A DNA stretch of 64,000 nucleotides, from positions 33,062-97,061 of the forward strand of contig JAFVQT010000036.1 in the NCBI GenBank assembly GCA_017504655.1, read 5' to 3'. Both the position numbers and the translations under genes were made by a program. The stretch is from Clostridia bacterium (GTDB lineage Bacteria > Bacillota > Clostridia > Christensenellales > Borkfalkiaceae). Below, piece after piece: positions 27,536-47,258 of the stretch. How positions within the stretch are numbered: the first letter of the stretch is position 1; every line of letters begins with the position of its first letter. The notes below the pieces were generated by a model. It was not told the DNA's origin and searched no databases. It saw nothing but the letters and a program-made list of their open reading frames with translations.

Positions 27536-27607
27536 AATTTTATAGTCATTAAGATGCCAACTTATTTTAATAAGTTTGATATCAAATTGCTAAGGAGGTA
27601 TACATCA

Positions 27608-30253
27608 ATGAAAAACTTTGGTTTGACCGATTCTCAGGTTGAAGAATCACGGCTCAAACACGGTAGCAATGCTTTAACCGAGCAGGCTACCGAGGGATTT
27701 TGGAGTAAGCTTTGGGGCAACTTTGGCGATCCGATGATTAAAATACTTTGCGTTGCGCTTATCGTAAACGTAGTATTTGCTTGTCTTGGACAGGTAGAGT
27801 GGTATGAGTCGGTGGGTATTGCGGCTGCAGTGCTTATAGCTACATTAGTTTCAACTTTTTCTGAATACAAAAATGAAAATGCATTTAGAAAGCTGCAGAG
27901 TGAGGCTTCACAAATTAAATGTAAAGCGTACCGCAACGGTGAGGTTGTGGAAATTTCCATTAACGACATAGTTGTCGGTGACTGCATTATTTTACAGTCC
28001 GGCGATAAAATTCCCGCAGACGGTATTTTGGTTGACGGAAATATTCAGGTTGACCAATCGGTATTAAACGGTGAAGCAAAAGAGGCAAATAAGGTAGTTG
28101 CGCCCGAGGGCTACGTAGACGAAGATACCACTACCGACTTTTTAAATCAGTATAAGGTTTTCCGCGGTTCTGTAGTTTGCATGGGCAGTGCAATTATGCA
28201 AGTAGTAACCGTTGGCGATAAGTCTGTTTACGGTCAAATTGCAAGCGAATTACAGTCTGAGGACGATAGAGAAACTCCGCTTAAGGTTAAGCTCGGTCAC
28301 CTCGCAGGTCAAATAAGTAAGTTCGGTTATTTTGGAGGTATTGCAATTGCTGTCGCATTCCTTTTTCAACGCTTCTTTATTCATAACGGCTTTGATTGGG
28401 CAAAGATAACCGAGTATTTCACAGGCAACTGGATGGCTCCCGTTAACGACGTGGTCAGCGCGGTAATGCTTGCCGTTATCATCATAGTTATGGCAGTGCC
28501 GGAGGGCTTGCCTTTGATGATAGCAATAGTTTCAGCTCAAAACATGGGCAAGATGCTTAAGGATAACGTTTTAGTACGTAAGGTGTCCGGTATCGAAACT
28601 GCAGGCAGTATAAATATTTTATTCAGCGACAAAACCGGTACTATCACTAAGGGTCAGCTTGAGGCAGTCGTTTTTGTAAACGGTGAAAGCAAGGAGTACA
28701 AACAGTTTAATTCAGTACCCGAAAAGCTCAACAGCCTCCTTGCGTTAAACGTAAGGTATAACACCAACACGATTATTTCCGGTGAAGGCAAAAAGCTCAA
28801 CATCGTAGGCGGTAACGCTACCGAAAGAGCTCTCGTTTCATACGTTGCAAACGATCCGTTCAAGGCGAGCGTAACTGTTGGAAATAAGATACCGTTTAAC
28901 AGTCAGAACAAGTATTCTGCTGCAAGAGTAAGCGGTGATTATAATACGACGCTCATAAAGGGCGCACCCGAAAAAATTCTTTCTCAGTGTAAATACTACT
29001 ACAACGAAAACGGTGAAAAGGTTGCAATTGAGGACGGTTGGAAGAAATTAAACGCTTCTATCGACTCGTTAGCTCAAAGAGCTATCCGCGTACTGGCGTT
29101 GGCAACCTGTGACGAAGAGCTTGTTGATGAATCTCTTCCTCAAGGCGATTGGACTCTTATCGGTGTAGTCGGTATACGCGACGAGGTAAGACCCGAATCA
29201 ATAGTTGCTATCGATAAGGTTCAAAAGGCAGGCGTACAGGTAGTTATGATTACGGGTGACCGTAAGGATACTGCTATTGCAATAGCAAAGGAAGCAGGCG
29301 TATTAAAGGCAGATACAGACCTCGTATTTACGTCTGACGAAATTGCAAGCATGAGCGACGAAGAGCTTAAGGATAAGCTTCCTAACATCCGTGTGGTTGC
29401 AAGAGCCCTTCCAAGCGACAAGAGCCGTTTTGTAAGAGTTGCTCAAGAGTTAAATCTCGTAGTAGGTATGACGGGTGACGGCGTAAACGATTCACCTGCG
29501 CTCAAAAAGGCAGACGTTGGCTTTGCTATGGGCGGTGGAACAGAGGTTGCTAAGGAAGCGAGCGAAATTGTTATCTTAGACGATAACTTCAATTCAATTC
29601 AAAAGGCAGTTCACTACGGCAGAACGATTTTCAACAGCATCCGTAAGTTTATTGTCTTCCAGCTTACAATCAACGTAACGGCAGTATTGATTTCATTCAT
29701 TGCACCTCTTCTCGGTATGGAGAATCCGTTGACCATTACTCAGATTCTTTGGGTAAACCTCGTAATGGATACCTTAGCCGCGTTGGCATTTGGCGGTGAG
29801 CCGGCTCTTGATAAATACATGAACGAAAAGCCAAAGCGCAGAGATGAGCCTATTGTAAGCGCAAACATGTGGACGTCGATACTCGTCGGAAGTCTTTGGG
29901 TATTTGCTCTCAGCATGGTATTTATCTTCTGCCCGCCGATCGTTAAGCTGTTCAGAGCAAATAACCATTTGACCGGCTATTTCGCATTCTTCATTTTTGC
30001 AGCGGTATTCAATGCGTTCAACGCAAGAACGGACGAAATCAATCTTTTCAAGCATATTAGAAAGAATGCTGGCTTTATAAGAATGATTGCTCTTATAACC
30101 GCAGTTCAGATTCTTCTTACATACTTAGGCGGTGAAATATTCGGCTGTCACGGATTAAACCTTCAGGAATGGGCTATTGTTATCGGCATGGCAATTACGA
30201 TTATCCCTGTCGATATCGTAAGAAAGCTCGTTGTTAAAAAAATTATAAAATAA
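27608..30253 (+). CDS. P-type (P2-type) Ca2+-transporting ATPase.
   Basis: It has the DKTGTITKG phosphorylation motif, MITGDRKDTAIAIA, GDGVNDSPALKKADVGFAMG and about 10 TM helices. An ATG at 27608 with an AAGGAGG RBS is preferred over the upstream ATG at 27554 used in the ORF track. Confidence 0.9.
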   Translation: MKNFGLTDSQVEESRLKHGSNALTEQATEGFWSKLWGNFGDPMIKILCVALIVNVVFACLGQVEWYESVGIAAAVLIATLVSTFSEYKNENAFRKLQSEASQIKCKAYRNGEVVEISINDIVVGDCIILQSGDKIPADGILVDGNIQVDQSVLNGEAKEANKVVAPEGYVDEDTTTDFLNQYKVFRGSVVCMGSAIMQVVTVGDKSVYGQIASELQSEDDRETPLKVKLGHLAGQISKFGYFGGIAIAVAFLFQRFFIHNGFDWAKITEYFTGNWMAPVNDVVSAVMLAVIIIVMAVPEGLPLMIAIVSAQNMGKMLKDNVLVRKVSGIETAGSINILFSDKTGTITKGQLEAVVFVNGESKEYKQFNSVPEKLNSLLALNVRYNTNTIISGEGKKLNIVGGNATERALVSYVANDPFKASVTVGNKIPFNSQNKYSAARVSGDYNTTLIKGAPEKILSQCKYYYNENGEKVAIEDGWKKLNASIDSLAQRAIRVLALATCDEELVDESLPQGDWTLIGVVGIRDEVRPESIVAIDKVQKAGVQVVMITGDRKDTAIAIAKEAGVLKADTDLVFTSDEIASMSDEELKDKLPNIRVVARALPSDKSRFVRVAQELNLVVGMTGDGVNDSPALKKADVGFAMGGGTEVAKEASEIVILDDNFNSIQKAVHYGRTIFNSIRKFIVFQLTINVTAVLISFIAPLLGMENPLTITQILWVNLVMDTLAALAFGGEPALDKYMNEKPKRRDEPIVSANMWTSILVGSLWVFALSMVFIFCPPIVKLFRANNHLTGYFAFFIFAAVFNAFNARTDEINLFKHIRKNAGFIRMIALITAVQILLTYLGGEIFGCHGLNLQEWAIVIGMAITIIPVDIVRKLVVKKIIK

Positions 30254-30278
30254 ACAAGGTAAATAAGGAGATAGGAAA

Positions 30279-30851
30279 ATGTCAGTTAATTTACAAAAAG
30301 GTCAAAAGGTCAATTTAAGAAAGGAAAACAAAGAGGTTTTAAGACGTATTATGGTAGGTCTTGGCTGGGATGAGGCCGGCCGTTATTCGGAAGACGTAGA
30401 CTGTGATGCAAGTGCTATTCTTTGCAAGAGAGGAAAGCTGGCTGATTTTAGAGACGACGTAGTATTTTACAATCATCTCCGTCATGCAACGGGTGCGGTA
30501 GTTCACCAAGGTGATAATTTAACCGGCGAAGGGGACGGTGACGACGAGCAGATTTTCGTTGACCTCGGTGCTTTACCCTCTGAGTACGACAGAATCATTT
30601 TTGTAGTCACTATTTATCAGGCGCGCGAAAGGCGTCAGCATTTCGGCATGATAGAAAACGCATTTATCCGTATTTGCGATGCTTCAACAGATGTGGAATT
30701 CTGTAAGTTTGACCTTTCCGAGAATTATAACGGAGCAACGGCTATGATAGTCGGCGAAATGGTGAAGGATGCGGGTGAGTGGAAGTTCAACGCTATAGGT
30801 TATCCAACCGTTGACAACAGCATTCTTGAAATTGCCAGACGCTTTGAATAA
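30279..30851 (+). CDS. TerD-family protein, paralog 1 (TerD/TerE/TerZ/CABP-type Ca2+-binding stress protein).
   Basis: It matches the TerD signature along its length: LQKGQKVNL...VGLGWD...DVDCDASAIL, the acidic Ca2+-binding loop GDNLTGEGDGDDEQIFVDL, and the C-terminus EWKFNAIGY. Confidence 0.85.
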   Translation: MSVNLQKGQKVNLRKENKEVLRRIMVGLGWDEAGRYSEDVDCDASAILCKRGKLADFRDDVVFYNHLRHATGAVVHQGDNLTGEGDGDDEQIFVDLGALPSEYDRIIFVVTIYQARERRQHFGMIENAFIRICDASTDVEFCKFDLSENYNGATAMIVGEMVKDAGEWKFNAIGYPTVDNSILEIARRFE

Positions 30852-30942
30852 TTGATTTTAACCGATTGCAAATTTCCCCTTGCGGGAGATTTGCCGCTCG
30901 GTTGATAAAATGAAATTGTGCTTAATAAAAGGAGAAATAAAC

Positions 30943-31530
30943 ATGATTAATCTTTCTAAGGGTCAAAAAATAAGCCTTGATAAAAATATGAATCTCTGTC
31001 TTGTGGGGCTTGGCTGGGATCCAAACAAGTATAAGGGCGGAGCAACCTTCGATTTAGACGCATCCGTATTTTTACTCGGTGCAAACGGAAAGGTTATGAG
31101 CGATGAGGATTTTGTATTCTATTCAAATCCCACTCACTCAAGCGGTTCCGTAAAGTCACTCGGTGACGACCGTACGGGCGGAAAAAGTGATACCGGAGAT
31201 GATGAGAAAATTATAATCAATCTTTCTCGCGTTCCCGCTCACGTGCAAAAGATGGTTATAGTTATCACTATTTACGACGCAGTTGCAAAAAAACAAAATT
31301 TCGGACAGGTATCTAACGCTTACGTAAGAGTTGTTAAAATTAAAAACGAACAGGACGAGGTTGGCGAAGAGGTTGTTAAATTTGAGCTTGACGAGGAGTT
31401 TTCTAACGAAACCTCGGTTGCTGCGTGTGAAATCACCAGAAGCGGAAGTGATTGGAAATTCGGCGCTCTCGGCATTGGATATCAATGCGAGCTTGACGGA
31501 CTTTGCCGTATGTTTGGCATAGACGTTTAA
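30943..31530 (+). CDS. TerD-family protein, paralog 2.
   Basis: It contains MINLSKGQKISL...VGLGWDP...DLDASVFLL...GDDRTGGKSDTGDDEKIIINL...DWKFGALG. A start at 30943 (AAAGGAG RBS) is preferred over the track's 30880. It is about 75% identical to paralog 3. Confidence 0.85.
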   Translation: MINLSKGQKISLDKNMNLCLVGLGWDPNKYKGGATFDLDASVFLLGANGKVMSDEDFVFYSNPTHSSGSVKSLGDDRTGGKSDTGDDEKIIINLSRVPAHVQKMVIVITIYDAVAKKQNFGQVSNAYVRVVKIKNEQDEVGEEVVKFELDEEFSNETSVAACEITRSGSDWKFGALGIGYQCELDGLCRMFGIDV

Positions 31531-31580
31531 TTTAAATTAAAAATTAATTTTAAGATTTGTACAAATAAAGGAGAAATAGT

Positions 31581-32168
31581 ATGGTTAATCTTTCTAAGGG
31601 CCAAAGAGTGAGCCTTGATAAGGGTATGAGATTGTGTTTGGTAGGTCTTGGATGGGATCCTAACAGATATCGTGGAAGTTATGATTTTGACTTGGATGCA
31701 TCTGTATTTTTGCTCGGACCTAACGGTAGAGTAAGAAGTGATGAGGATTTTGTTTTCTACGGAAATCAGGTACATAAGAGCGGTTCGGTTAAATCGCTTG
31801 GTGACGACCGTACGGGTGGAAACAGTGAGGACGGTGACGATGAGCAGATTATTATTGATTTAAGCAGAGTTCCCTCTTACGTAACCCGTATTGCAGTTAC
31901 CGTAACCATATACGATGCTCAGGCAAGACGTCAAAACTTCGGTCAGGTATCAAACGCATACGTAAGAGTTGTTAAGATCAGAAACGAGGGGGACGAGGAC
32001 GGCTATGAGGTTGTTCGTTACGACCTTGACGAGGAATTTGCCGATGAAACCGCAATCGTTGCATGTGAAATTTCACGTAACGGAAGCGAATGGAAGTTCA
32101 GCGCGGTAGGAGCAGGCTACAGAGGTGAGCTTGCAGCGCTTTGCCGTAAATTCGGCGTTGACGTTTAA
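31581..32168 (+). CDS. TerD-family protein, paralog 3.
   Basis: It contains MVNLSKGQRVSL...VGLGWDP...DLDASVFLL...GDDRTGGNSEDGDDEQIIIDL...EWKFSAVG and has an AAAGGAG RBS. Confidence 0.85.
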   Translation: MVNLSKGQRVSLDKGMRLCLVGLGWDPNRYRGSYDFDLDASVFLLGPNGRVRSDEDFVFYGNQVHKSGSVKSLGDDRTGGNSEDGDDEQIIIDLSRVPSYVTRIAVTVTIYDAQARRQNFGQVSNAYVRVVKIRNEGDEDGYEVVRYDLDEEFADETAIVACEISRNGSEWKFSAVGAGYRGELAALCRKFGVDV

Positions 32169-32243
32169 TAATTTACAAAAAGCGGACTTGCGCATTCGCG
32201 TAAGTCCTTGACTGTACAAAAATATTGAGTTTTATCAGAGAGG

Positions 32244-33473
32244 ATGACTATGAGCTTTCAATCTTTTTGTTCAAAATGCGGTGGGCAGTTAATACAGCAG
32301 GACGAAAACACCTTTAAGTGTAAGTTTTGCGATTCAATTTACCGTGAAGACACGTTAAAGAAGGAGATTGATGCACTTTCGCTGTTATTGGACGAGAAAA
32401 AGAGAGAAGAGATTTCCAATTTAAAAAGGGAACTTTGGAAAAAGGCAAACGAGGAGTTTTTAGACAGTAAAGAGATTTTACGTCTTTGTCAAGAGGTGAA
32501 AAAGCTCGTTCCGGACGATTTTTATGCTAATTTTTACGAGGCGGCAAACTCGGATAACGAGGACCGTCTTGTCAGCATGCTTGAATGTATGGACGTGATA
32601 GAGCATTACGACGATATAGAGGACGTTATCGAATACTGCCTTAAATCAATTACGCCTAAAAATATGCTTGCAATATGCAATCTTATCGAAAAGGCATTCA
32701 AGCAAAACGATCTTTCTAAATATAACGAATACAGGACAAGGTACGACGAAAAGTGCGTGCTTATAAACGATTGCGTTTATGACCCTGCATATCCGCGTGA
32801 CGTATTCGTCTGCTATTCAAGTAAGGATATGCCAAAGGTAGAGGAGCTTGTAAAATTCTTAGAGGAGCAAGGTCTTTTATGCTTTGTTGCAATGCGTAAC
32901 CTTCAGCACGGAAGAGGGGCTGTTCAAAATTATTGGAATGCCCTGCACACGGCTATTGAAAGCTGTAAATGCGTTGTATTTTTATCTTCGACGAATTCAA
33001 GAGATATGCATTGCGATGCGTTGCAGGAGCTCAGATACGTACTGTCACTCGAGCAAAAGCTCAATAAAAAGATTAAGAGAATAGAGTATCTTCTCGAAAA
33101 TTATACGGGCGCAGTGGTTGAAAGAAACTTCAAGCGCATATTCGAGGGGTTGGAATATTGCTACGACGTAGATACGGTTTACGACAGAATAATGTGGGAC
33201 GACGATGAGGTTGCCGTTCCCGAGGTTCAAAGCCCCGAGATTTCCGTGCAAAAGGAAATAAAGTATTGCGTAAACTGCGGTAAAGAAAATTTAGACAGCG
33301 CAAAGTTTTGCTCAGATTGCGGAAAGGACGTTTTCGTTGCGACACACGAGGAATACGTGGAGCAGTTGAAAAAGCAAAGAGAGGAGCTTGAAGCGTTAAG
33401 GCAGTCCTTAGCAAGTGCAAACCAGCAGGTTGAGGAACAAAAAAGGATAGCCGAAGAGCAGAAAAGCAGGTAG
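32244..33473 (+). CDS. Zinc-ribbon / TIR-domain / zinc-ribbon / coiled-coil protein. It is probably the 5' part of a longer TIR-TerD gene interrupted by a frameshift.
   Basis: The N-terminus CSKCGG...CKFCDS is a zinc ribbon. The TIR signature is RDVFVCYSSKDMPKVEELVKFLEEQGLLCFVAMRNLQHGRG...CKCVVFLSSTNSRDMHCDALQEL. A second zinc ribbon is CVNCGKENLDSAKFCSDCGK. The gene ends in an AEEQ-rich coiled coil, and an alternative start lies at 32250. Confidence 0.75.
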   Translation: MTMSFQSFCSKCGGQLIQQDENTFKCKFCDSIYREDTLKKEIDALSLLLDEKKREEISNLKRELWKKANEEFLDSKEILRLCQEVKKLVPDDFYANFYEAANSDNEDRLVSMLECMDVIEHYDDIEDVIEYCLKSITPKNMLAICNLIEKAFKQNDLSKYNEYRTRYDEKCVLINDCVYDPAYPRDVFVCYSSKDMPKVEELVKFLEEQGLLCFVAMRNLQHGRGAVQNYWNALHTAIESCKCVVFLSSTNSRDMHCDALQELRYVLSLEQKLNKKIKRIEYLLENYTGAVVERNFKRIFEGLEYCYDVDTVYDRIMWDDDEVAVPEVQSPEISVQKEIKYCVNCGKENLDSAKFCSDCGKDVFVATHEEYVEQLKKQREELEALRQSLASANQQVEEQKRIAEEQKSR

Positions 33474-34264
33474 AGGAGCATAAAAAGCAAGCCGAAGAGC
33501 AAAAAAAGAAGGCTGAAGAGCAAATAAGGCAAGCCGAGCAAAGAAGACGGCAAGAGTCTGACTCTCAAATCCCTCAGCCGTCTAAGGTCGTTCAGCACGA
33601 TTATGCAGACGATGAATACGACGCTTATTTGCATGGTGATATGCAATTTGAGGACGTAGACCCTGAGGAGGATTACTATGAGGACACCTATCTTCAAGGT
33701 CGCAGGGCAGACGTTGCAACGCTTTATACGGGCGATGAGTTTATGGAGCTTATAAAGGGGCAGAACGTAATTTTGCCCGAGGGAATAAGAAAGGCACGTG
33801 TAACCGTTGAAAACGATTATAAGCTTGATAACGTAGTAGCCGATTTATATGTGTTTATGCTCGATAACAACGACCAGGTGCTTTCTGAATCAGATTTGAT
33901 ATTTTTCGGTAATACTTCGTCTTTGAATAAATCTGTCAGCATGACCGAGGACGAGGACTGTAACGTAGTAGATATTTCCTTTAACAAAGTAAATCAGGAC
34001 GTTTCGAAAATCCGTTTCATAATGTCTATGAATATGGAAGACGGCAGAATAAGAAACTTTTCAATGGTCAGGTCATCCAGCATTACGGTTTTACTTGAAG
34101 AGAGAGCCTTCGTTATTAATCTTGAAAACTTTGACAGATTTGAAAGTGTTCTGGCAATAGAGTTTTTAAGGATCAGAAACAAATGGAAGCTCAGCGTTCA
34201 GGTTGCCGGCTTTAAGGACAGTATAACTGCTATATGCGGTGACTACGGAATAGACGTAGAGTAA
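33434..34264 (+). CDS. Coiled-coil plus a divergent TerD domain. The reading frame is open upstream to 33434 and probably continues the TIR gene via a frameshift (the ORF track gives TTG 33629..34264).
   Basis: This frame reads ...QVEEHKKQAEEQKKKAEEQIRQAEQRRRQESD... and then a TerD-like domain (LIKGQNVILPEG...VVADLYVFMLDNNDQVLSESDLIFFGN...VVDISFNKV...IRFIMSM...KWKLSVQVAGF...ICGDYGIDVE). The domain lacks the canonical GDDxTG...GDDE Ca2+ loop and has no RBS or ATG of its own. Confidence 0.6.
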   Translation, partial: GTKKDSRRAEKQVEEHKKQAEEQKKKAEEQIRQAEQRRRQESDSQIPQPSKVVQHDYADDEYDAYLHGDMQFEDVDPEEDYYEDTYLQGRRADVATLYTGDEFMELIKGQNVILPEGIRKARVTVENDYKLDNVVADLYVFMLDNNDQVLSESDLIFFGNTSSLNKSVSMTEDEDCNVVDISFNKVNQDVSKIRFIMSMNMEDGRIRNFSMVRSSSITVLLEERAFVINLENFDRFESVLAIEFLRIRNKWKLSVQVAGFKDSITAICGDYGIDVE

Positions 34265-34306: not shown

Positions 34307-34888
34307 ATGCCTATTTTCTCTAAAAAGAACAAGAAGAGTCCCGAGGAGATTAAAAAGGAGCGCGAGGCTAAAATTGCCAGCACCTCAAATTCTCTTCGTT
34401 TACAGATAGTAACTCTTGAAAAAAAGAAAGAGGTCTTGCTTGGAAAGGTAATGGAAGCTAAAAATAAGGGTCTTAAGGAGCAAGAGCTTCAGGCAAGAAA
34501 TCTCTTAAAGCAGACTATGGCTGCTATAAAGAGAGAAAACGGAATGCTGATGACACTTGAGCTTGCCGTTCAGTCGCGTGATTTAGCTCAGCTCAACGCT
34601 AACTTTTTGGAAAGCATCGGTTCGCTTTCAGACGATATTTTAAGCTCAGGCAAGGTTACGAGCGAGGCAAACGCAAAGCGTATAGGAAACAAATTTTTAC
34701 GCGCCGTATACGAGTCTAATCAGCAAAAGGAGCGTATTGACGATATGCTTGCAATAGGTGATTATTCATCTGTAATCAGCAGCGACGGTGATCAGTATGC
34801 GGAATTTGACGACGAAATAGACAGTATGCTCGAAAATGCTCAGGATACGCAAGTAGGGTATAACACGCCTAATAGAAACCGCTATTAA
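34307..34888 (+). CDS. Snf7/ESCRT-III-like (PspA/Vipp1 superfamily) coiled-coil protein.
   Basis: KKSPEEIKKEREAKIA...LQIVTLEKKKEVLLGKVMEAKNKGLKEQELQARNLLKQTMAAIKRENGMLMTLELAVQS aligns by eye with eukaryotic Snf7/CHMP4 (KKSPQEAIQKLRETEEMLEKKQEFLEKKIEQELETAKKNAKKNKRAALQALKRKK...). It has an acidic C-terminus and an AAGGAG RBS. Confidence 0.6.
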   Translation: MPIFSKKNKKSPEEIKKEREAKIASTSNSLRLQIVTLEKKKEVLLGKVMEAKNKGLKEQELQARNLLKQTMAAIKRENGMLMTLELAVQSRDLAQLNANFLESIGSLSDDILSSGKVTSEANAKRIGNKFLRAVYESNQQKERIDDMLAIGDYSSVISSDGDQYAEFDDEIDSMLENAQDTQVGYNTPNRNRY

Positions 34889-34902
34889 TTAGGAGGTGGA
34901 AT

Positions 34903-36558
34903 ATGGGTTTTCGCGATTTTAAAAAAGAATTGGAAAGAAAGAGAGAGCAAGAGGAAACCATGCGTGAATTAAATTCCGCAATTTCCACGCTCACGAGAAA
35001 GCGTGACAGTTATACAAAGCAGGCTAAAGAAGCGTTAAAGTCGGGAAACACTTCTCAATATAACGCAATGGTTGCACTGCTTAGGCACGCAATATTTAAT
35101 CTTAAGCAAGCCCAGGATATGGTTGCAAATTTCACAATTGCAAGAGATATGTGTGAGATGCAGCATCTTAACAAAAAATTTGTCAAATCGTTAAATTCAG
35201 TAATGAATAACGTATACAAAACGTGCAAGGCAATACACGTAAGTACGAGTGAAAAGACTTTTATGAAGGCTCTTTATCAGCAAAATCAAACCTCGCTTGA
35301 GCTTCAACAGGCGTTGCAGGCAAACAATATGACGTTTGCAAGCAGTGTAGCCTCTCTTTCTGATATTGGCGACGATGAAATTAAAAATCTTTTAAGCGAT
35401 GAGATAGCTGCAGACGAGCAAATGATCGACACCTCGTTAGACGAGCTGGAAAGCTCGCTCTTGGGGTCGGTTGACGGTATCGAAATGCCTAAGGAAAATA
35501 TTGCTACTATCAGCACGCCGAGTGTAATCGGCTCTGCATCTCAGGCTCCCTGTACTTTAGCACCGGTAGCTCCGAGCGAGCATATAACACCTGCGGTCAC
35601 AAGAGAAGAGCCGAAATCCTTTGCAGGTACGCCTGCACCGTCTGCAGAAGGTAAAAAGCGTCCCGAGGACGAGCTTTTGAGCGGAGAGGGCGAAGCGGGT
35701 GATTTCGTTTGGGATAATATTCCGACTATCGGCTTTGATGATATCGCAGGCTTAGACGAGGTTAAAGAGGTGGTTCAGGTTAAGGTACTTCTTCCTCTTA
35801 AAAACCCCGAGGCTTTCGAGGGCTACGAAAAGAAGAACGGTGGTGGCTTGTGTCTTTACGGACCTCCGGGAACGGGTAAGACTATGATTGCCGCTGCAAT
35901 AGCAAAGGAAATCGGCGCAAAGTTCTGCTCGGTTAAGCCGTCTGATTTATTGCAGCAGGGTGCGGGCAATACAGAGCGTGCGGTCAGAACGTTATTCAAG
36001 CAAGCAAGAAAATTCCCTTGTGCCGTAATTTACTTTGACGAAATGGATTCTATTTCGCCAAAGACTACAAGGTCACAGTATGCAAAGCAGCTCAGGTCCG
36101 AGTTTCTTGCTCAGCTTCAAGGTGTAGAGAGCTACGGTAAGGATACGGGTAACCTTCTGTTCCTTATATGTGCGACTAACAAGCCTTGGGATATTGACAG
36201 TGCATTCCTCCGTCCGGGCCGTTTTGGTACTAAAATTTACGTAGGACTTCCCGATGCCCCTGCAAGAGAGTATATGATAAACAAGCGTCTTGCAAAAATC
36301 AAGGCAAAGGGTGTCGTTCGCGTTGGCGACGATCTTGACGTGGCAGGTATCGTAGAGAAAACCAATGGCTTTAATGGCTCTGATATTTCAAATCTTTTAG
36401 ACAGAATTGAAGAGATTTCAATCGTAAGAGGTATCCGTACGGGTGAAAAACTCATCAGCGGTGACGATTTTGATCAAGCCCTTTCAGATATTCACTCATC
36501 GGTACAAACCGAGGATTTGATAAAATTAAAAGAGTGGCGAGAGGAAAACGATTCGTAA
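34903..36558 (+). CDS. AAA+ ATPase (Vps4/katanin-type classical AAA) with an N-terminal ESCRT-III/CHMP2-like coiled-coil region and a Pro/Ala-rich linker.
   Basis: Walker A is LYGPPGTGKTM, Walker B is VIYFDEMDS, and the sensor-1/SRH region is ICATNKPWDIDSAFLRPGRFGTKIYVGLPD. The N-terminal 180 aa (RKREQEETMRELNSAISTL...QAKEALKSGNTSQYNAMVALLRHA...) resemble Vps2/CHMP2-type ESCRT-III. Confidence 0.75.
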   Translation: MGFRDFKKELERKREQEETMRELNSAISTLTRKRDSYTKQAKEALKSGNTSQYNAMVALLRHAIFNLKQAQDMVANFTIARDMCEMQHLNKKFVKSLNSVMNNVYKTCKAIHVSTSEKTFMKALYQQNQTSLELQQALQANNMTFASSVASLSDIGDDEIKNLLSDEIAADEQMIDTSLDELESSLLGSVDGIEMPKENIATISTPSVIGSASQAPCTLAPVAPSEHITPAVTREEPKSFAGTPAPSAEGKKRPEDELLSGEGEAGDFVWDNIPTIGFDDIAGLDEVKEVVQVKVLLPLKNPEAFEGYEKKNGGGLCLYGPPGTGKTMIAAAIAKEIGAKFCSVKPSDLLQQGAGNTERAVRTLFKQARKFPCAVIYFDEMDSISPKTTRSQYAKQLRSEFLAQLQGVESYGKDTGNLLFLICATNKPWDIDSAFLRPGRFGTKIYVGLPDAPAREYMINKRLAKIKAKGVVRVGDDLDVAGIVEKTNGFNGSDISNLLDRIEEISIVRGIRTGEKLISGDDFDQALSDIHSSVQTEDLIKLKEWREENDS

Positions 36559-36568
36559 GGAGGATTGA

Positions 36569-37699
36569 ATGAACTACCAAGTAGAATATTATAGAAATCT
36601 TTACGAAAAGTGCTATAAAGAGGGCTTGCAGGCAAATGACAGACAAAATTTTGCCCTCGCTTATAAAAAGCTTTCAGAATCAGCTCAATATTTACGCAAG
36701 CTCGCATCTGTCGACCTTGCAAACAAAGAGATATATACTGCAAGAGCAGATAAAATACAGCGCATTGCGACTGCGCTTCAGACAAAGGCAAACGAGCAGG
36801 CTCAGCCATGCCCCGCAAACCAAAGGGTGGACAGCCCTTACAACGGTTACAGCCCGTCGCAAGCCGTAGGTAGCGACACTTCAGGCGGATTTGCAGACGA
36901 GGATATGAGCGCGTATTATACCTTTTATAGCGCGGGTGATTTGGTGGACGGCTTTGACAAGGTTATCGGCCTTGAAGAGGCAAAAGAGGCTATAACAGAA
37001 TACGTTATAAATCCAATTCGCTATGCAGATGCCTACAGCTATAACTTTTTAAGCAGTAAATGTATTCTTTTGGAAGGCCCTCCCGGTACGGGAAAGACCA
37101 CGTTTGCAAAAGCCGTTGCAAAGGAAATTGAACAGCCGTTTGCGCTTGTAAACGTCGCCGCTATGGTAAACTGCTACGTGGGTGAAACGGGCAAGACGAT
37201 AGATAAGGTTTTTGCATCCTTAAGAAGATACGTTGAAGAGCATAATTGCGGAATAACTGTTTTCTTTGACGAATTTGATGAAATAGCAAAGAGCAGAGGC
37301 GGTGACGATAAAGCATCACAAACGGCAGTTCCCGCGTTACTGCGCAATTTAGACGGAGTAAAAGAAAATAAAAACTTCCTCATTTTGGCTAATACCAACT
37401 GCAAAGAATCGTTGGATGCAGGTATTTTAAGTAGATTCCGCAGGAAAATTTACATACCGCTTCCTGATAAGAATATGCGTGTTCAATTCTTTAAAAGCAA
37501 GCTGAGTCAGCTTGAAGCTAACTTCTTTGAGCGTTTGGATTTTGAACAGCTTGCAGACGCATCGGATGGGTTAAGTGGCCGTGCAATCGCGCAGATTTGT
37601 GACGATTTTCTCCATTTTATAGGTGGGGTTAAGGCAGGTATACGTTCTTGTGAGGATTTTAATCAAGCATTATTAGATATAATTATCAAGCAAAAATAG
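36569..37699 (+). CDS. AAA+ ATPase with an N-terminal MIT-like three-helix domain (Vps4-like architecture).
   Basis: The N-terminus YRNLYEKCYKEGLQANDRQNFALAYKKLSESAQYLRKL is MIT-like. The AAA module has LLEGPPGTGKTT, VFFDEFDE and LILANTNCKESLDAGILSRFRRKIYIPLPD. Confidence 0.75.
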   Translation: MNYQVEYYRNLYEKCYKEGLQANDRQNFALAYKKLSESAQYLRKLASVDLANKEIYTARADKIQRIATALQTKANEQAQPCPANQRVDSPYNGYSPSQAVGSDTSGGFADEDMSAYYTFYSAGDLVDGFDKVIGLEEAKEAITEYVINPIRYADAYSYNFLSSKCILLEGPPGTGKTTFAKAVAKEIEQPFALVNVAAMVNCYVGETGKTIDKVFASLRRYVEEHNCGITVFFDEFDEIAKSRGGDDKASQTAVPALLRNLDGVKENKNFLILANTNCKESLDAGILSRFRRKIYIPLPDKNMRVQFFKSKLSQLEANFFERLDFEQLADASDGLSGRAIAQICDDFLHFIGGVKAGIRSCEDFNQALLDIIIKQK

Positions 37700-38965
37700 G
37701 TGATTATGATGAAAATATGTCAAAACTGCAAGGCTAAGCTAAATAGCGACGACTTGTTTTGCAGTTCGTGCGGAGCAAAATACAACCCTGACTCCGCGTC
37801 AAATGAAAAAGACTCGCTGTTTTTAAAGTATTCAAGCTATTTAAATAACGATAGCTTGTTTAACGTAGCGTGGGCAAAGGAGCAGGGAATTGTTAAAAGC
37901 GACGTTGCCGACGAAGCTGAGCAAATATATAAGTTTTTAGCCATGAAGGGTCATTTAAACAGTATGTTCAGATACGCGATGATGTTATTAAATCGAGGAC
38001 CGAGTGGCTTAACCGAAGCAAGGACTTGGCTGAAGATAGCTTCTGAGCACGGGCACGTAGAGAGCATTAACTATTTAAAAGCAGAGCTTGGCGAGGATGT
38101 TAAGGGGAGTTGTGTCAGTCACGTGTTACAGTCAGCTCCTACCGTTTCTCCGACTGTACCGTCGGTTTCTCCTGCTGAGCCTGCCGTTTCTCCTGCACAG
38201 CCTGCTCAAAGCGTAAGAAGCGGTGCAGTGCTTTCGGGTGAGGAGGTCTATTCAAAGCTACAGCGTTCAGCAGTTGAAATACACGCCTATACGGCAAACC
38301 TAAAGGCTCGCTCATCTGGTTTTTTGGTTTCCTCAACGGGATTCGTGGTAACTAACGCCCATGCTGTTTTAGACGATGACGGAGAGGTTTACCAAAACGT
38401 ACAAGTGTACTACGGCGGTAAGTATTATCCTGCAAGGGTAGTAGCGGTAGGCAGTCCTGCAGACGGCAAAAACGACAGTGTAGACTTGGCTCTTTTAATT
38501 GCAGCGGGCTTGACGGATTGCAGTGCGGTTGACCTTGGCGACGAGGAGTGCCGTAACGGTCAAAAGGTATATCTTATAGGCAATTCGCTTGGCGACGGTA
38601 TTTGTATAACTTCGGGTATTATAAGCGACGGAAAAAGAGCAATGCCGGGGCTATCGTATCCTTATATAATGACTGATGCCGCTGCAAATCACGGCAATTC
38701 GGGCGGACCTTTGGTTGATGAGAGGGGCTCGGTAATAGGTGTGCTGGTTGCAGGCGTACAAAATGCAGAGGGTATGAATTACGCAATTCCTATTGATATA
38801 GTAAAAGAATTTTTAGCGTACGTAGTGTCCTTATTAAATTTACCGCAAAGCATTTTAGGCGAGCTTTATTCTGCAAGCCCAAGTAATATGTCTATAAAGG
38901 ATAAAATCTTTAAGGGTATTCATCTTGCTATTGATGTAATTGAATTTATTCTTAGTATTTTCTAA
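37700..38965 (+). CDS. Zinc-ribbon / Sel1-repeat / trypsin-like (S1C, HtrA/DegP-type) serine protease with a C-terminal hydrophobic segment.
   Basis: The zinc ribbon is CQNCKAKLNSDDLFCSSCGAK. Sel1-like repeats follow (MKGHLNSMFRYAMMLL...KIASEHGHVESINYL) and then a PxxS linker. The protease core has catalytic His in VVTNAHAV, Asp in SVDLALL and Ser in GNSGGPLVDERGSVIGV. Confidence 0.75.
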   Translation: MIMMKICQNCKAKLNSDDLFCSSCGAKYNPDSASNEKDSLFLKYSSYLNNDSLFNVAWAKEQGIVKSDVADEAEQIYKFLAMKGHLNSMFRYAMMLLNRGPSGLTEARTWLKIASEHGHVESINYLKAELGEDVKGSCVSHVLQSAPTVSPTVPSVSPAEPAVSPAQPAQSVRSGAVLSGEEVYSKLQRSAVEIHAYTANLKARSSGFLVSSTGFVVTNAHAVLDDDGEVYQNVQVYYGGKYYPARVVAVGSPADGKNDSVDLALLIAAGLTDCSAVDLGDEECRNGQKVYLIGNSLGDGICITSGIISDGKRAMPGLSYPYIMTDAAANHGNSGGPLVDERGSVIGVLVAGVQNAEGMNYAIPIDIVKEFLAYVVSLLNLPQSILGELYSASPSNMSIKDKIFKGIHLAIDVIEFILSIF

Positions 38966-38988
38966 AAAAATAAACGGAGATAAGTATT

Positions 38989-39888
38989 ATGAAAGAAAAA
39001 ATCAGAAATCTTACAGTCGCTCCTCGCGAGGATTACGTTATTTGGACGGAAGACCTGACCAATATCGTTCGCGAAACAACGTTGACGGTATCTGCCGGAT
39101 GTGTTGCACTTTACTTAGTAAACGGCGTAATTAAGAGTATAAATATTCCCGGCCGTGCGCTTATTAAATCAAAAGCTGAAGACAAATCCAACAGCAAGCT
39201 CGAGCTCATATGCGTTAATACGGATAAAACCTTTGAAATTTGCTGTGGAGTAGGTAATATTCCTTTCAAGGATTCTGAAATCAACTGCGAAACCGTAGTT
39301 GGTGCACACGGTGAGTGTAAAATCAGAATTTCTCAGCCATGGCCTTTATACACGACCTTCGGCCACGCTCCTATCAGTGCTGAGGAAATTGATTCTTACG
39401 TTAAGCTTAAGCTCAACGAGATTATGACAACCCGTCTTGCAGAGGTTTTACAGCATTACGATTACAGCAATATTATGACTCAGCAGTCAGCTATTGCAGC
39501 AGACCTTGAAAAAAGATTTTCTCAACGCCTTAACGATATAGGTCTTGAGGTTACGAGCTTTGCGCTTGCCGGCATAATGTTCAACGCCGAGTATCAGGAA
39601 AAGCGCAGAGAGTATTTTGAAATGCAAAATTGCAGACAGGCAGAAAAGCTTGAGCGCAGAGCAAGAGAGCGCGAGCAAAGAGCGGAAATTGACAACGTTA
39701 TTGCAATAGCAAACGCAACAAAAAATCTCAACACGTCGTCTAACGTAACGCCTCCTCAGCCTGCAGCGCCCGTAACCCCACCACCTCAACCGCAGTCAGG
39801 CGCAAGACTGAATTTCTGCCCAAGATGCGGTACAAAGGTAGATCCTTCAGCAATTCATTGCTCGGGATGCGGTAAAAAACTTATATAA
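38989..39888 (+). CDS. SPFH/Band-7-like protein of the YdjI type (COG4260-like) with a C-terminal zinc ribbon.
   Basis: The N-terminus EDYVIWTEDLTNIVRETTLTVSAGCVALYLVNGVI resembles B. subtilis YdjI (IEWTDDSKDTLVYRFP...GAQLTVRESQVAVFVNEGEI). The C-terminus is FCPRCGTKVDPSAIHCSGCGKK, and GGAG serves as the RBS. Confidence 0.55.
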   Translation: MKEKIRNLTVAPREDYVIWTEDLTNIVRETTLTVSAGCVALYLVNGVIKSINIPGRALIKSKAEDKSNSKLELICVNTDKTFEICCGVGNIPFKDSEINCETVVGAHGECKIRISQPWPLYTTFGHAPISAEEIDSYVKLKLNEIMTTRLAEVLQHYDYSNIMTQQSAIAADLEKRFSQRLNDIGLEVTSFALAGIMFNAEYQEKRREYFEMQNCRQAEKLERRAREREQRAEIDNVIAIANATKNLNTSSNVTPPQPAAPVTPPPQPQSGARLNFCPRCGTKVDPSAIHCSGCGKKLI

Positions 39889-42986: not shown

Positions 42987-43083
42987 TCAACTTATAGGCT
43001 GGTTTTTTTAGAACAATATTAAAATAAAGCAGACAGGTGACCCTTTTAAGGCTCACCTTTGCTTATGTTAAGGAAAAGTTGAA

Positions 43084-44067
43084 ATGGAAAAAGAAATAGA
43101 AGGCAGTCTGTTAAACGGTAAGATGCAAAAGGCGTACCGGGTGGGTGCTTTGCTCTATATTCCCGCTGTTTACGATTTAAGCGTTGTAGATAAAATAGCA
43201 CGCGGAGATTTTAAGTCTGTTGCATTTTGCCTTGAGGATTCTATTGCAGACGATGCGGTGGAGCAGGCAGAAATAAACCTCAAAAGAATTTTAACTGCAA
43301 TAAAAGAAAGAAAAATTGCCAATTTGCCAATGATATTTATCCGTCCGCGCAGTCCTAAGCATTTGGAGCGCGTGCACAATGCTATTATGGGGCAAATTGA
43401 TATTGTATCCGGCTACGTTTTGCCAAAATTTGATATGTCTAATGCAAACGAATATAAGGCTATTTTTCTCGAGATAAACAAGCAGTCGCAAACGCCTTTA
43501 TATATGATGCCTATTTTGGAAAGCCGTTTGATTGCTCAAAAAAGCACGAGGACTGAAGAGCTTTATCAAATCAAAGCAGTATTAGATTCCATAAGCGAAT
43601 ACGTGCTGAACGTAAGAGTTGGAGGAAACGATTTCTGCAATTTGTTCGGAATTCGCAGAAGGGTAAATCAAACTGTATACGACGCAGGTGTCGTTCGTGA
43701 TATTTTGATTGATATTCTAAACGTTTTTTCTTTAGATTACGTTGTGTCGGGTCCCGTTTGGGAATATTATGGCAAGGATGAAAACGGCGATTGGGCAAAG
43801 GGCTTAAAAAGAGAGCTTGAGTTGGATTTGTTAAACGGCTTTGTCGGTAAAACGTCTATCCATCCCGAGCAAATCCCTATAATTTACAAAAGCTTAAGAG
43901 TGGATAAAAACGATTATCAGGACGCTCTCTCTATTTTAGGTTGGCATTCTTCAAGGTTGGGTGTCTTTTCAAGCGCAAATCACTCCCGTATGAATGAGGT
44001 TAAGTGTCACCGCAAATGGGCAGAGAGGATATTTATACTCGCAAGCATTTACGGAATTAAGGAGTAA
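43084..44067 (+). CDS. HpcH/HpaI aldolase / citrate-lyase beta-subunit-like TIM-barrel C-C lyase (Ter-associated biosynthetic gene).
   Basis: AYRVGALLYIPAVYDLSVVDKIARGDFKSVAFCLEDSIADDAV resembles the HpcH/CitE N-terminal strand-loop pattern. The call is strengthened by its operon context with ATP-grasp, PRTase and HAD genes. Confidence 0.6.
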   Translation: MEKEIEGSLLNGKMQKAYRVGALLYIPAVYDLSVVDKIARGDFKSVAFCLEDSIADDAVEQAEINLKRILTAIKERKIANLPMIFIRPRSPKHLERVHNAIMGQIDIVSGYVLPKFDMSNANEYKAIFLEINKQSQTPLYMMPILESRLIAQKSTRTEELYQIKAVLDSISEYVLNVRVGGNDFCNLFGIRRRVNQTVYDAGVVRDILIDILNVFSLDYVVSGPVWEYYGKDENGDWAKGLKRELELDLLNGFVGKTSIHPEQIPIIYKSLRVDKNDYQDALSILGWHSSRLGVFSSANHSRMNEVKCHRKWAERIFILASIYGIKE

Positions 44068-44071
44068 ACGT

Positions 44072-45079: not shown

Positions 45080-45081
45080 TT

Positions 45082-47257: not shown

Positions 47258-47258
47258 T

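What the first reader, a model, noticed from the sequence alone, without database searches (positions are those of the whole stretch)
32244..34264. The TIR-domain gene appears to continue by frameshift into a TerD domain (a TIR-coiled-coil-TerD fusion, possibly a pseudogene or a slippage site)
Seen in sequence: ORF 32244..33473 ends ...QVEEQKRIAEEQKSR-TAG inside an AEEQ-rich repeat (gccgaagagca occurs twice within about 40 nt). The frame shifted by one relative to it is open from 33434 and reads ...QVEEHKKQAEEQKKKAEEQIRQAEQ... straight into the TerD-like domain of ORF 33629..34264. That downstream ORF has no ATG or RBS of its own; the track start is a TTG. Fused, the product would be a zinc-ribbon/TIR/zinc-ribbon/coiled-coil/TerD protein of about 670 aa. 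Its TerD domain lacks the canonical GDDxTG...GDDE Ca2+ loop found in the three upstream paralogs. A TIR-TerD fusion is an unusual architecture. The break inside a short direct repeat suggests a recent indel, a sequencing error, or slippage.
Basis: seen in the sequence. Interest (0 to 1): 0.72.

Follow-up and report, generated by a model that had tools for sequence, protein, structure and literature searches.

The report
Frameshifted copy of a TIR–TerD gene
The two reading frames are one conserved gene for a TIR–coiled-coil–TerD protein, split in this assembly by one missing A; other assemblies of the same strain carry the gene intact, so the break is an ordinary private mutation or assembly error, although the fusion protein itself is uncharacterised.

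Summary
ORF 32244..33473 (true start probably 32250) ends at a TAG. The -1 frame is open from 33434 to 34264 and encodes a TerD domain (Pfam E=1.6e-22).

The break lies inside a 21-nt (heptad) tandem repeat. Adding one A to the A4 run at 33462-33465 restores six perfect heptads.

Four other public assemblies of the same strain (99.9-99.98% identical) have A5 at that spot and a single intact 671-aa ORF. Eleven more distant orthologue clusters (46-71% identity) and at least seven remote clusters also carry TIR and TerD in one protein.

So this is a one-base deletion private to this assembly. It is either a real strain-level truncation allele or a consensus error. It is not programmed frameshifting, and these are not two genes.

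The gene sits in a conserved Clostridia ter-type cluster: Ca2+-ATPase, three Ca-type TerD paralogues, TIR-TerD, a helical protein, two AAA ATPases, a protease, an SPFH protein and the Ter nucleoside-biosynthesis module.

The fused TerD lacks the Ca2+ motifs in all orthologues. The TIR keeps its invariant glutamate.

The frameshift is ordinary. The TIR-TerD architecture is an undescribed variant of known parts.

The parts
32250..33473 (+). 5' part of the TIR-TerD gene as it stands in this assembly. The ORF listing starts it at 32244; the likely real start is ATG 32250. It encodes an N-terminal zinc ribbon, a helical domain, a TIR domain, a second zinc ribbon and the first two heptads of the coiled coil, then a premature TAG at 33471-33473.
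   Evidence: P0007, the NCBI annotation of this same ORF, is 407 aa. GAGG at 32240-32243 lies 6 nt before ATG 32250. Gene callers start the intact gene at the equivalent ATG in L040 and L041.
32802..33071 (+). TIR domain (aa 187-276, numbered from 32244). The family-invariant glutamate E262 is codon 33027-33029.
   Evidence: Pfam TIR_2 scores 41 bits against a cut-off of 28. E262 (E87 of alignment A2) is invariant in 26 homologues. It aligns with the Glu of the WCxYEL motif of TLR6.
33264..33329 (+). Second zinc ribbon (aa 341-362), between the TIR domain and the coiled coil.
   Evidence: Pfam Zn_Ribbon_1, E=2.3e-8. The cysteines are invariant in orthologues.
33413..33537 (+). Tandem array of 21-nt units (also scored as 41/42-nt units). 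It encodes heptads VEEQKRI / AEEQK(K)Q / VEEHKKQ / AEEQKKK / AEEQIRQ / AEQRRRQ of one long predicted helix.
   Evidence: Tandem Repeats Finder reports periods 21, 41 and 42, with scores 81-138. The AF2 model has a single helix over aa 368-435.
33462..33465 (+). The lesion: an A4 run where other assemblies of the same strain have A5. This 1-nt deletion shifts the frame.
   Evidence: Inserting one base at 33461-33466 maximises the heptad periodicity. L040/L045, L041, L046 and L048 all read GCAGAAAAAGCAGG, whereas the window reads GCAGAAAAGCAGG.
33434..34264 (+). 3' part of the same gene in the -1 frame: the rest of the coiled coil, an acidic low-complexity linker, a conserved DYFSGxMxFxDVD motif and the C-terminal TerD domain (33743-34246).
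   Evidence: Foldseek matches the TerD structures 3ibz and 2kxt with TM 0.74-0.78 normalised to the target. The TTG at 33629 falls inside a motif conserved in orthologues.
27554..32168 (+). Upstream operon partners: a PMCA-type Ca2+ P-type ATPase (27554-30253) and three canonical TerD paralogues with Ca motifs (30279-30851, 30940-31530, 31581-32168).
   Evidence: NCBIfam TIGR01517 scores 628 bits against a cut-off of 507. Pfam TerD gives E=1e-64 to 1e-69. The motifs are shown. The same order is seen in L001, L002, L005, L006, L018, L019 and L040.
34307..39888 (+). Downstream conserved partners: a 193-aa all-helical protein, two classical AAA ATPases (CdvC/Vps4- and IetA-like), a zinc-ribbon trypsin-like protease and an SPFH protein with a zinc ribbon.
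   Evidence: The set is conserved next to TIR-TerD in L001, L002, L018, L019 and L040.
41433..48026 (+). A SpoVK/CbbX-type AAA protein followed by the Ter 'nucleoside-like metabolite' biosynthesis module: TIM-barrel C-C lyase, ATPgrasp_Ter, PRTase_2/TRSP, StiP/PELOTA_1 and a HAD phosphatase.
   Evidence: Pfam and NCBIfam. The same module directly follows TIR-TerD in L002-L004.

Best explanation
ORF 32250..33473 and the open frame 33434..34264 are the two halves of one conserved gene. It encodes a 671-aa protein with this layout: zinc ribbon, helical domain, TIR, zinc ribbon, heptad coiled coil, acidic linker, and a TerD domain that lacks the Ca2+-binding motifs.

In this assembly one A is missing from an A5 run (33462-33465) inside the 21-nt heptad repeat. 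Translation therefore stops at TAG 33471 after two heptads. The TerD half has no start signal of its own and is not expected to be made. The lesion is private to this assembly. It is either a very recent strain-level mutation or a consensus error, and I rate these about equally likely. It is not a recoding signal.

How the intact protein most likely works is inference:
- It is a subunit of a ter-type, Ca2+-linked stress or anti-phage cluster.
- The C-terminal Ca-less TerD domain ties it to the Ter machinery. It could do this by joining the assembly of Ca-binding TerD paralogues, or by binding the nucleoside-like product of the linked PRTase / ATP-grasp / lyase / HAD module.
- The coiled coil brings TIR domains together.
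- The TIR domain, with its conserved glutamate, then cleaves NAD+ or makes an NAD-derived signal as the output.

The truncated 407-aa product in this assembly would keep the TIR domain but lose its link to the Ter system.
For: Shown:
- Frames, stop codon and domains are as described.
- The break sits in a 21-nt tandem repeat, and a one-base insertion at 33461-33466 gives the best heptad register.
- Contigs from other samples are 99.9-99.98% identical to the window: Logan SRR12529307, ENA ERZ28653803, Logan SRR31077521 and ENA ERZ28653793. All have A5. The ORF is 671 aa where complete, and is open past the site where the contig ends.
- Over the 12,582 bp shared with L040, the window differs by only 2 SNPs and this single indel.
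- Eleven orthologue clusters are fused. Seven more remote TIR_2+TerD representatives were found among the nine long hits tested.
- There is no decay downstream of the break: 44 of 48 orthologue-invariant residues are kept, against 148 of 153 upstream.
- The TTG at 33629 lies inside a conserved motif.
- The gene order is conserved across seven loci, and no terminator-like site was found on the + strand between 27000 and 36000.
- The TerD fold is confirmed, and the Ca motifs are absent in all orthologues.
- The TIR glutamate is invariant and aligns with the WCxYEL glutamate.
- The same N-terminal TIR module is joined to LRR, DUF6273, Sel1, TPR or L7/L12-C domains, or (read from the sequences) to apparent transmembrane tails, in other Clostridia proteins. 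This fits a model of a constant effector with a variable sensor or adaptor.
- TerD has been proposed as a sensor of specialised nucleotide derivatives (PMC7159879; PMC7824862).
Against: - No read data were available, so a real mutation cannot be separated from an assembly error.
- The functional model is untested. The AF2 confidence for the TIR domain was low (pLDDT about 50). NADase activity, Ca2+ dependence and TerD-TerD contacts are all inferred.
- PADLOC gives only a weak ThsB-like hit (E=4e-4), and no known defence system is called for the cluster.
- One 205-aa stand-alone homologue of the TerD half exists (P0131, 57% identity). It starts at the Met equivalent to ATG 33641. Occasional independent expression of a TerD-only product therefore cannot be fully excluded.
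Confidence: 0.9

Rival explanations
1. Assembly or consensus error only. The organism sampled for this MAG has A5 and an intact gene, and the missing A was introduced during assembly or polishing.
For: Four of four other assemblies of the same strain have A5. The TerD half shows no decay. The site is a homopolymer inside a tandem repeat. This is the only indel against L040 in 12.6 kb.
Against: An A4/A5 run is short for a homopolymer error. The other long ORFs of the 64-kb window look uninterrupted, so the assembly is not indel-prone. The window also carries its own synonymous SNP in the same gene (33922 T versus C), so it represents a slightly different haplotype in which a real indel is plausible.
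Confidence: 0.45
2. A genuine, strain-private truncation allele. A real 1-nt deletion uncouples the TIR module from TerD, either as a loss-of-function mutation in a costly defence or stress gene, or as a neutral recent pseudogene.
For: The evidence is the same as above, plus the private SNP haplotype. Natural short homologues with only the N-terminal module, TIR and a short coiled coil exist (P0039, 429 aa on a 10-kb contig), so a truncated product could fold.
Against: It is seen in only one assembly, no reads were available, and there are no secondary lesions.
Confidence: 0.45
3. Programmed -1 ribosomal frameshifting or transcriptional slippage produces the full-length fusion from the A4 template, or the A run acts as a phase-variable on/off switch.
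For: A -1 shift anywhere between 33434 and 33470 would fuse the frames. The region is rich in A runs (A6 at 33439-33444, A7 at 33501-33507). The A4/A5 length differs between assemblies.
Against: The same strain and all orthologues encode one uninterrupted ORF, so the shift is not conserved. There is no X XXY YYZ heptamer in the zero frame; CAA AAA AGG allows only P-site slippage (read). Four or five A is far below the roughly 8 or more typical of slippage or contingency loci (my own knowledge). The allele count is 1 of 5 assemblies.
Confidence: 0.04
4. Two independent genes: a TIR protein and a separately translated TerD protein.
For: the ORF listing reports a 211-aa ORF from TTG 33629. One 205-aa stand-alone relative exists (P0131).
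Against: There is no Shine-Dalgarno sequence before TTG 33629, ATG 33641 or ATG 33743. The conserved sequence extends upstream of these starts in the same frame. All 11 orthologue clusters and the same-strain contigs are fused. No product of the downstream frame was returned by the protein search.
Confidence: 0.03

Closest known systems
TerD-family proteins of ter (tellurite, phage and colicin resistance) clusters, e.g. Klebsiella TerD (PDB 2KXT) and Streptomyces TerD (3IBZ). This includes the 'non-metal-binding TerD paralogues' and the linked PRTase / ATP-grasp / C-C lyase / HAD module described by Anantharaman, Iyer and Aravind 2012 (cited from memory; PMC4104200 is not held).
   Same: There is a Pfam TerD match and a TerD fold. 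The gene sits immediately after three canonical TerD paralogues and in the same cluster as the Ter biosynthesis module.
   Different: The TerD domain is the C-terminal part of a 671-aa TIR protein. It lacks both Ca2+-binding motifs, with a 9-residue deletion of the GDxxTG loop. The cluster has a PMCA-type Ca2+-ATPase, and no TerC, TerB, TelA or TerY was found among the ORFs scanned between 20.4 and 48.6 kb.
Bacterial TIR-domain immune proteins, such as Thoeris ThsB and other TIR NADases or signal synthases.
   Same: There is a TIR_2 domain with the conserved glutamate. There is a weak PADLOC ThsB-like hit. The architecture is an effector module joined to a variable C-terminal domain.
   Different: No ThsA-like partner (SIR2, SLOG or Macro) is found in the cluster. 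The TIR is preceded by a zinc ribbon and a roughly 140-aa helical domain of unknown fold. Its partner domain is TerD. Activity is untested.
Sister proteins with the same Zn-ribbon / helical / TIR / Zn-ribbon / coiled-coil module fused to LRR, DUF6273, Sel1, TPR or L7/L12-C domains, or (read from the sequences) to apparent transmembrane tails (P0013-P0058, Clostridia MAGs).
   Same: They share 30-44% identity over the first 300-400 residues, the same invariant residues (R, F, S, E, RNL, Y, E, F) and the same K/E-rich coiled coil.
   Different: Their C-terminal domain is not TerD. Their genomic context was not examined.
Ordinary single-base frameshift pseudogenes or indel errors in metagenome-assembled genomes.
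   Same: There is one missing base in a short homopolymer, the flanking halves are intact, and sibling assemblies are intact.
   Different: Nothing differs. This is what the break itself is.

Membership tests
TerD family (PF02342) | Significant match to the TerD profile above the curated cut-off | tested here: met
   80.3 bits against a cut-off of 25.3, E=1.6e-22, profile positions 3-187 of 187. The PDB TerD chains 2kxt and 3ibz are hit at E=1.8e-14 and 1.8e-10.
TerD family (PF02342) | TerD beta-sandwich fold | tested here: met
   The AF2 model has pLDDT about 80 over aa 500-670. Foldseek hits 3ibz, 2kxt, 2qng and 2qz7 with E=1e-8 to 1e-11 and TM(target) 0.71-0.78.
Ca2+-binding TerD (Klebsiella TerD type) | DxDxS and GDN(R/L)TG..GDGDDE calcium-binding motifs | tested here: not met
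   The alignment with the three window paralogues and 2KXT shows 'DLYVF' in place of DLDAS. The GDxxTG loop is deleted and only an E/D-rich remnant remains. The same is true in all orthologues.
Ter stress-response / defence cluster | Co-located TerD paralogues and the PRTase / ATP-grasp / C-C lyase / HAD biosynthesis module | tested here: met
   Three TerD genes lie at 30279-32168. C-C_Bond_Lyase, ATPgrasp_Ter, PRTase_2+TRSP, StiP+PELOTA_1 and HAD lie at 43084-48026. The same sets occur in L001, L002 and L019.
Ter stress-response / defence cluster | Membrane components TerC, TerB, TelA, and the TerY vWA protein | tested here: not met
   None of the ORFs scanned between 20436 and 48620 matched these families. 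A PMCA-type Ca2+-ATPase and an SPFH protein are the membrane-associated members instead. The rest of the window was not scanned.
TIR-domain NAD+-cleaving enzymes | TIR domain match above the curated cut-off | tested here: met
   TIR_2 scores 41 bits against a cut-off of 28. A profile of 26 homologues hits TIR domains of TRR-2, TLR6, MAL/TIRAP, TLR1 and MyD88 in the PDB at E=1.5e-4 to 5e-2.
TIR-domain NAD+-cleaving enzymes | Conserved catalytic glutamate in the W(C/V)xxE(L/I) helix | tested here: met
   E262 is invariant in 26 homologues. It aligns with the Glu of TLR6 'WCHYEL'. Equating this position with the catalytic Glu of SARM1 and plant TIRs rests on my own knowledge.
TIR-domain NAD+-cleaving enzymes | NAD+ hydrolase or cyclase activity | not testable with these tools
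   This needs a biochemical assay.
Thoeris defence system | ThsB TIR protein encoded with a ThsA (SIR2/SLOG or Macro) effector | tested here: not met
   PADLOC ThsB gives only E=4e-4 with no stretch passing on its own. No ThsA-like protein is present among the neighbours.
Programmed ribosomal frameshift / transcriptional slippage site | The frameshift is conserved in relatives, with a slippery motif in the zero frame or a long homopolymer | tested here: not met
   All relatives and the same-strain contigs have an uninterrupted ORF. There is no X XXY YYZ heptamer in frame, and the run is A4.
Phase-variable contingency locus | Long simple repeat (typically 7-8 nt or more) with frequent length variation between and within samples | tested here: not met
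   The run is 4-5 nt. A4 is seen in 1 of 5 assemblies covering the site. Variation within samples could not be tested without reads.

The most novel reading that the evidence does not exclude
The intact TIR-TerD protein may be the output subunit of an undescribed Clostridial Ca2+- and membrane-damage-linked immune or stress island.

In this reading, Ca-binding TerD paralogues and a Ca2+ pump sense ion influx. A Ter-made nucleoside-like ligand or TerD-TerD contacts recruit the Ca-less TerD domain. The coiled coil clusters the TIR domains so that they burn NAD+ or emit a nucleotide signal. An adjacent helical protein (possibly ESCRT-III-like), two Vps4/CdvC-like AAA ATPases, a protease and an SPFH protein remodel or police the membrane.

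The A-run indel could then be a naturally occurring off-switch that uncouples a costly effector.
Probability: 0.15. Interest if true: 0.7.

Novelty: new variant of a known kind. Interest (0 to 1): 0.35.

Why it matters
The frameshift itself matters only for annotation. The deposited MAG lists a 407-aa 'TIR domain-containing protein' and no TerD half, whereas the species encodes a 671-aa TIR-TerD protein.

The architecture has wider interest. Ter clusters have long been linked to phage, colicin and tellurite resistance without a known mechanism or effector. A conserved protein that physically joins a TerD module to a TIR domain gives a concrete, testable output for a Ter-type system. It also links Ter biology (Ca2+, a nucleoside-like metabolite) to the NAD+-based immune signalling known from Thoeris, SARM1 and plant TIR proteins. 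Two further observations point to the Ca-less TerD domain being a general docking or sensor module: the same TerD subtype is also fused to a SpoVK/CbbX-type AAA ATPase, and the same TIR module is fused to other C-terminal domains.

Tried and rejected
- An exact-pattern DNA scan of genome contigs for the site, allowing A4-A6, found nothing. The window's species is not among the representative genomes held.
- The search for related loci in genome contigs and metagenome contigs gave only distant relatives (L006 at 54%, L020 at 41%) and unrelated TIR hits. No near-identical copy was found.
- A look-up of the contig encoding P0007 failed; it is not on record. The same-strain contigs were reached only indirectly, through the neighbouring proteins P0059 and TerD_c.
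- The first homologue search did not list the intact 671-aa protein, although it is encoded in Logan and ENA contigs. Absence from that list is therefore not evidence of absence.
- Anantharaman et al. 2012 (PMC4104200) could not be read. Full-text searches for TerD together with TIR domain, phage defense, ESCRT-III, Vps4, NADase or SPFH found no description of a TIR-TerD fusion.
- The full-length AF2 model was too poor in the TIR region (pLDDT about 50) for fold matching of that domain. The N-terminal helical domain gave no significant PDB match.
- I considered that a 41-nt repeat-mediated insertion caused the shift, because the GCCGAAGAGCA copies are 41 nt apart. I rejected this: the same-strain contigs differ by exactly one A, not 41 nt.
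Full report
**1. The observation**

ORF 32244..33473 ends ...QVEEQKRIAEEQKSR followed by TAG at 33471-33473. The frame one base back has a TGA at 33431-33433. It is then open from 33434 to the stop at 34262-34264 and reads ...KQVEEHKKQAEEQKKKAEEQIRQAEQRRRQ... into a C-terminal domain.

On the conceptual fusion, Pfam finds TIR_2 (aa 187-276, 41 bits against a cut-off of 28), Zn_Ribbon_1 (aa 341-362) and TerD (aa 501-668, 80 bits against 25.3, E=1.6e-22).

The 'start' of the downstream ORF is a mechanical TTG at 33629. In-frame ATGs at 33641 and 33743 lack a Shine-Dalgarno sequence. The neighbouring genes have GAGG or AAGGAG at 6-8 nt.

The real start of the upstream half is probably ATG 32250, with GAGG at 32240-32243, not 32244.

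**2. Where exactly the break is**

Tandem Repeats Finder reports an array at 33413-33537 with periods 21, 41 and 42. Laid out in 21-nt rows, the sequence gives VEEQKRI / AEEQKSR / stop and then garbage. With one extra base in the A run at 33462-33465, it gives six clean heptads: VEEQKRI / AEEQKKQ / VEEHKKQ / AEEQKKK / AEEQIRQ / AEQRRRQ.

I tried a single-base insertion at every position from 33434 to 33470. Heptad periodicity is highest only for insertions at 33461-33466. The AF2 model of the repaired protein has one continuous helix over aa 368-435 across this point.

**3. Relatives are fused**

Ten are 606-726 aa, 46-71% identical and cover 99-100% of the query. The eleventh (P0012, 517 aa) is N-terminally truncated and covers 82%. 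The search also returned the window's own truncated product, P0007 (407 aa, 'MAG: TIR domain-containing protein [Clostridia bacterium]').

In the alignment the linker is variable in length and composition. A motif (D/E)YFSGxMxFxDVD upstream of the TerD domain is conserved, and the window's TTG 33629 and ATG 33641 fall inside it.

An exhaustive HMMER search of 1.84 billion representatives with the TerD half found one fused representative above 50% identity (P0008) and one 205-aa stand-alone sequence (P0131). Next came a series of 30%-identical C-terminal TerD domains in long proteins. Of the nine long hits I scanned, seven are TIR_2+TerD proteins (P0133-P0136, P0138, P0141, P0144; one has three TIR domains). 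One is a SpoVK/CbbX-type AAA-TerD fusion. The architecture is therefore rare but old and recurrent.

**4. The same strain has the gene intact**

The decisive result came from the neighbours. I looked up the contigs that encode exactly the window's 193-aa protein (34307-34888) and its third TerD paralogue (31581-32168). This returned contigs from other samples that are 99.9-99.98% identical to the window.

- In Logan SRR12529307 (L040/L045) and ENA ERZ28653803 (L041), the TIR-TerD gene is one 671-aa ORF.
- In Logan SRR31077521 (L046) and ENA ERZ28653793 (L048), the ORF runs open through the site to the contig end.
- All four read GCAGAAAAAGCAGG where the window reads GCAGAAAAGCAGG.
- Within the 2,016-nt gene, the only differences between the window and L040/L041 are this one A and a synonymous T/C at 33922.
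- Over the 12,582 bp shared with L040, there are two SNPs and this single indel.

The translated intact gene equals the repair I had predicted from the heptad register.

**5. What the break is**

It is a one-base deletion (A5 to A4) private to this assembly.

It is not a recoding site:
- It is absent from the same strain elsewhere and from all orthologues.
- No X XXY YYZ heptamer lies in the zero frame.
- Four A is too short for transcriptional slippage or classical phase variation (my own knowledge of those mechanisms).

It is not two genes, for the reasons given in sections 1 and 3.

I cannot tell whether it is a true mutation or a consensus error without reads.
- For an error: 4 of 4 sibling assemblies are intact, and the TerD half shows no decay. 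It keeps 44 of 48 orthologue-invariant residues, against 148 of 153 upstream.
- For a real allele: the run is short, the other long ORFs of the 64-kb window look uninterrupted, and the window carries its own SNP haplotype.

I rate the two about equal.

**6. The protein and its setting**

The gene sits in a long co-directional cluster. No terminator-like site was found on the + strand between 27000 and 36000, and there is a promoter-like site before 27554. The gene order is:
- a PMCA-type Ca2+ P-type ATPase, passing the NCBIfam equivalog cut-off;
- three canonical TerD paralogues;
- TIR-TerD;
- a 193-aa helical protein;
- two classical AAA ATPases, with best matches CDC48/CdvC/PAN and PADLOC IetA;
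- a zinc-ribbon trypsin-like protease;
- an SPFH protein with a zinc ribbon;
- an unknown 375-aa protein;
- a SpoVK/CbbX-type AAA protein;
- the complete Ter biosynthesis set: C-C_Bond_Lyase, ATPgrasp_Ter, PRTase_2/TRSP, StiP/PELOTA_1 and HAD.

The same order, with small rearrangements, recurs around the orthologues in L001, L002-L004, L005, L006, L018 and L019. Base composition is not distinct from the flanks.

The fused TerD has the TerD fold. It lacks both Ca2+ motifs in every orthologue, so it belongs to the non-metal-binding class of TerD paralogues.

The TIR domain keeps an invariant glutamate, E262, which aligns with the Glu of the WCxYEL motif.

The N-terminal Zn-ribbon / helical / TIR / Zn-ribbon / coiled-coil module is shared with many Clostridia proteins. 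Their C-termini are LRR, DUF6273, Sel1, TPR or L7/L12-C domains, or apparent transmembrane tails (the last read from the sequences).

**7. Most likely mechanism (inferred)**

- The constant TIR module is the effector or signal generator, and the C-terminal domain decides what it listens to.
- In TIR-TerD, the Ca-less TerD domain couples the TIR to the Ter machinery. It could do this by joining the assembly of Ca-binding TerD paralogues. Alternatively it could bind the nucleoside-like product of the linked biosynthesis genes. TerD has been proposed to recognise specialised nucleotide derivatives (PMC7159879; PMC7824862).
- The heptad coiled coil would bring TIR domains together, which TIR enzymes need for activity (my own knowledge).

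The allele in this window would produce a 407-aa TIR protein with two heptads and no TerD, cut off from that input.

**8. Comparison with what is known, and novelty**

The parts are all known: TerD, TIR, ter clusters, and frameshift pseudogenes in MAGs. The cluster is not Thoeris, because there is no ThsA and only a weak ThsB-like score. It is also not a classical ter operon, because no TerC, TerB, TelA or TerY was found among the ORFs scanned and a Ca2+-ATPase is present instead.

I found no description of a TIR-TerD fusion in the searchable literature. NCBI names an orthologue simply 'TerD family protein'.

The frameshift is ordinary. The architecture and its cluster are a new variant of known kinds.

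**9. Verdict**

- Interest in the frameshift is low.
- Interest in the TIR-TerD family and its Ca2+ / AAA / protease / SPFH / Ter-biosynthesis island is moderate.
- Overall interest score: 0.35.

Noticed in passing
[not shown]
   Followed up: partly
window 37700-39888: A zinc-ribbon trypsin-like protease and an SPFH/Band-7 protein with a C-terminal zinc ribbon follow the AAA pair. SPFH + coiled-coil + zinc-ribbon proteins are noted in archaeal ESCRT-like loci, and SPFH YdjI localises PspA in B. subtilis (PMC10936438). An AAA plus protease pairing also recalls the IetAS defence system (PADLOC IetA hits).
   Followed up: partly
window 27554-30253: A PMCA-type Ca2+-translocating P-type ATPase (above the NCBIfam equivalog cut-off) heads the cluster. 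It is conserved upstream of the TerD paralogues in all long related loci, in the position where classical ter operons have the membrane protein TerC.
   Followed up: partly
window 41433-48026: A SpoVK/CbbX-type AAA protein with a C-terminal DUF4145 is followed by the complete Ter 'nucleoside-like metabolite' module (C-C lyase, ATPgrasp_Ter, PRTase_2/TRSP, StiP/PELOTA_1, HAD). In L002-L004 this module directly follows TIR-TerD.
   Followed up: yes
P0137 and P0136 (protein representatives): The same Ca-less TerD subtype is also found as the C-terminal domain of a SpoVK/CbbX-type AAA ATPase (P0137, 474 aa) and of a 1045-aa protein with three TIR domains (P0136). This suggests it is a general adaptor or sensor module.
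   Followed up: no
P0013-P0058 (sequences): The Zn-ribbon / helical / TIR / Zn-ribbon / coiled-coil module is widespread in Clostridia MAGs. It is fused to LRR, DUF6273, Sel1, TPR or ribosomal L7/L12-C domains, or to apparent transmembrane tails (read from the sequences). The roughly 140-aa helical domain before the TIR has no recognisable fold match.
   Followed up: partly
P0131 (sequence): A 205-aa stand-alone homologue (57% identity) of the TerD half starts at the Met equivalent to window ATG 33641. It could be a gene call at a contig edge, another broken copy, or a real TerD-only form. Its context could not be looked up.
   Followed up: no
window 32184-32207: A 10-bp inverted repeat (GGACTTGCGC-ATTC-GCGTAAGTCC, with one G-T pair) lies in the 81-nt spacer between the third TerD gene and the TIR-TerD start. 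No T run follows it, and the terminator scan did not call it.
   Followed up: no
window 32244-32252: the ORF listing starts the gene at ATG 32244. The GAGG at 32240-32243 and the gene calls in sibling contigs point to ATG 32250. The intact protein is therefore 671 aa, not 673.
   Followed up: yes
The homologue search with the repaired protein did not return the intact 671-aa protein of the same strain, although that protein is encoded in Logan and ENA contigs. It returned only the 407-aa truncated form as a 100% hit. The near-identical contigs were found only through the neighbouring genes.
   Followed up: no
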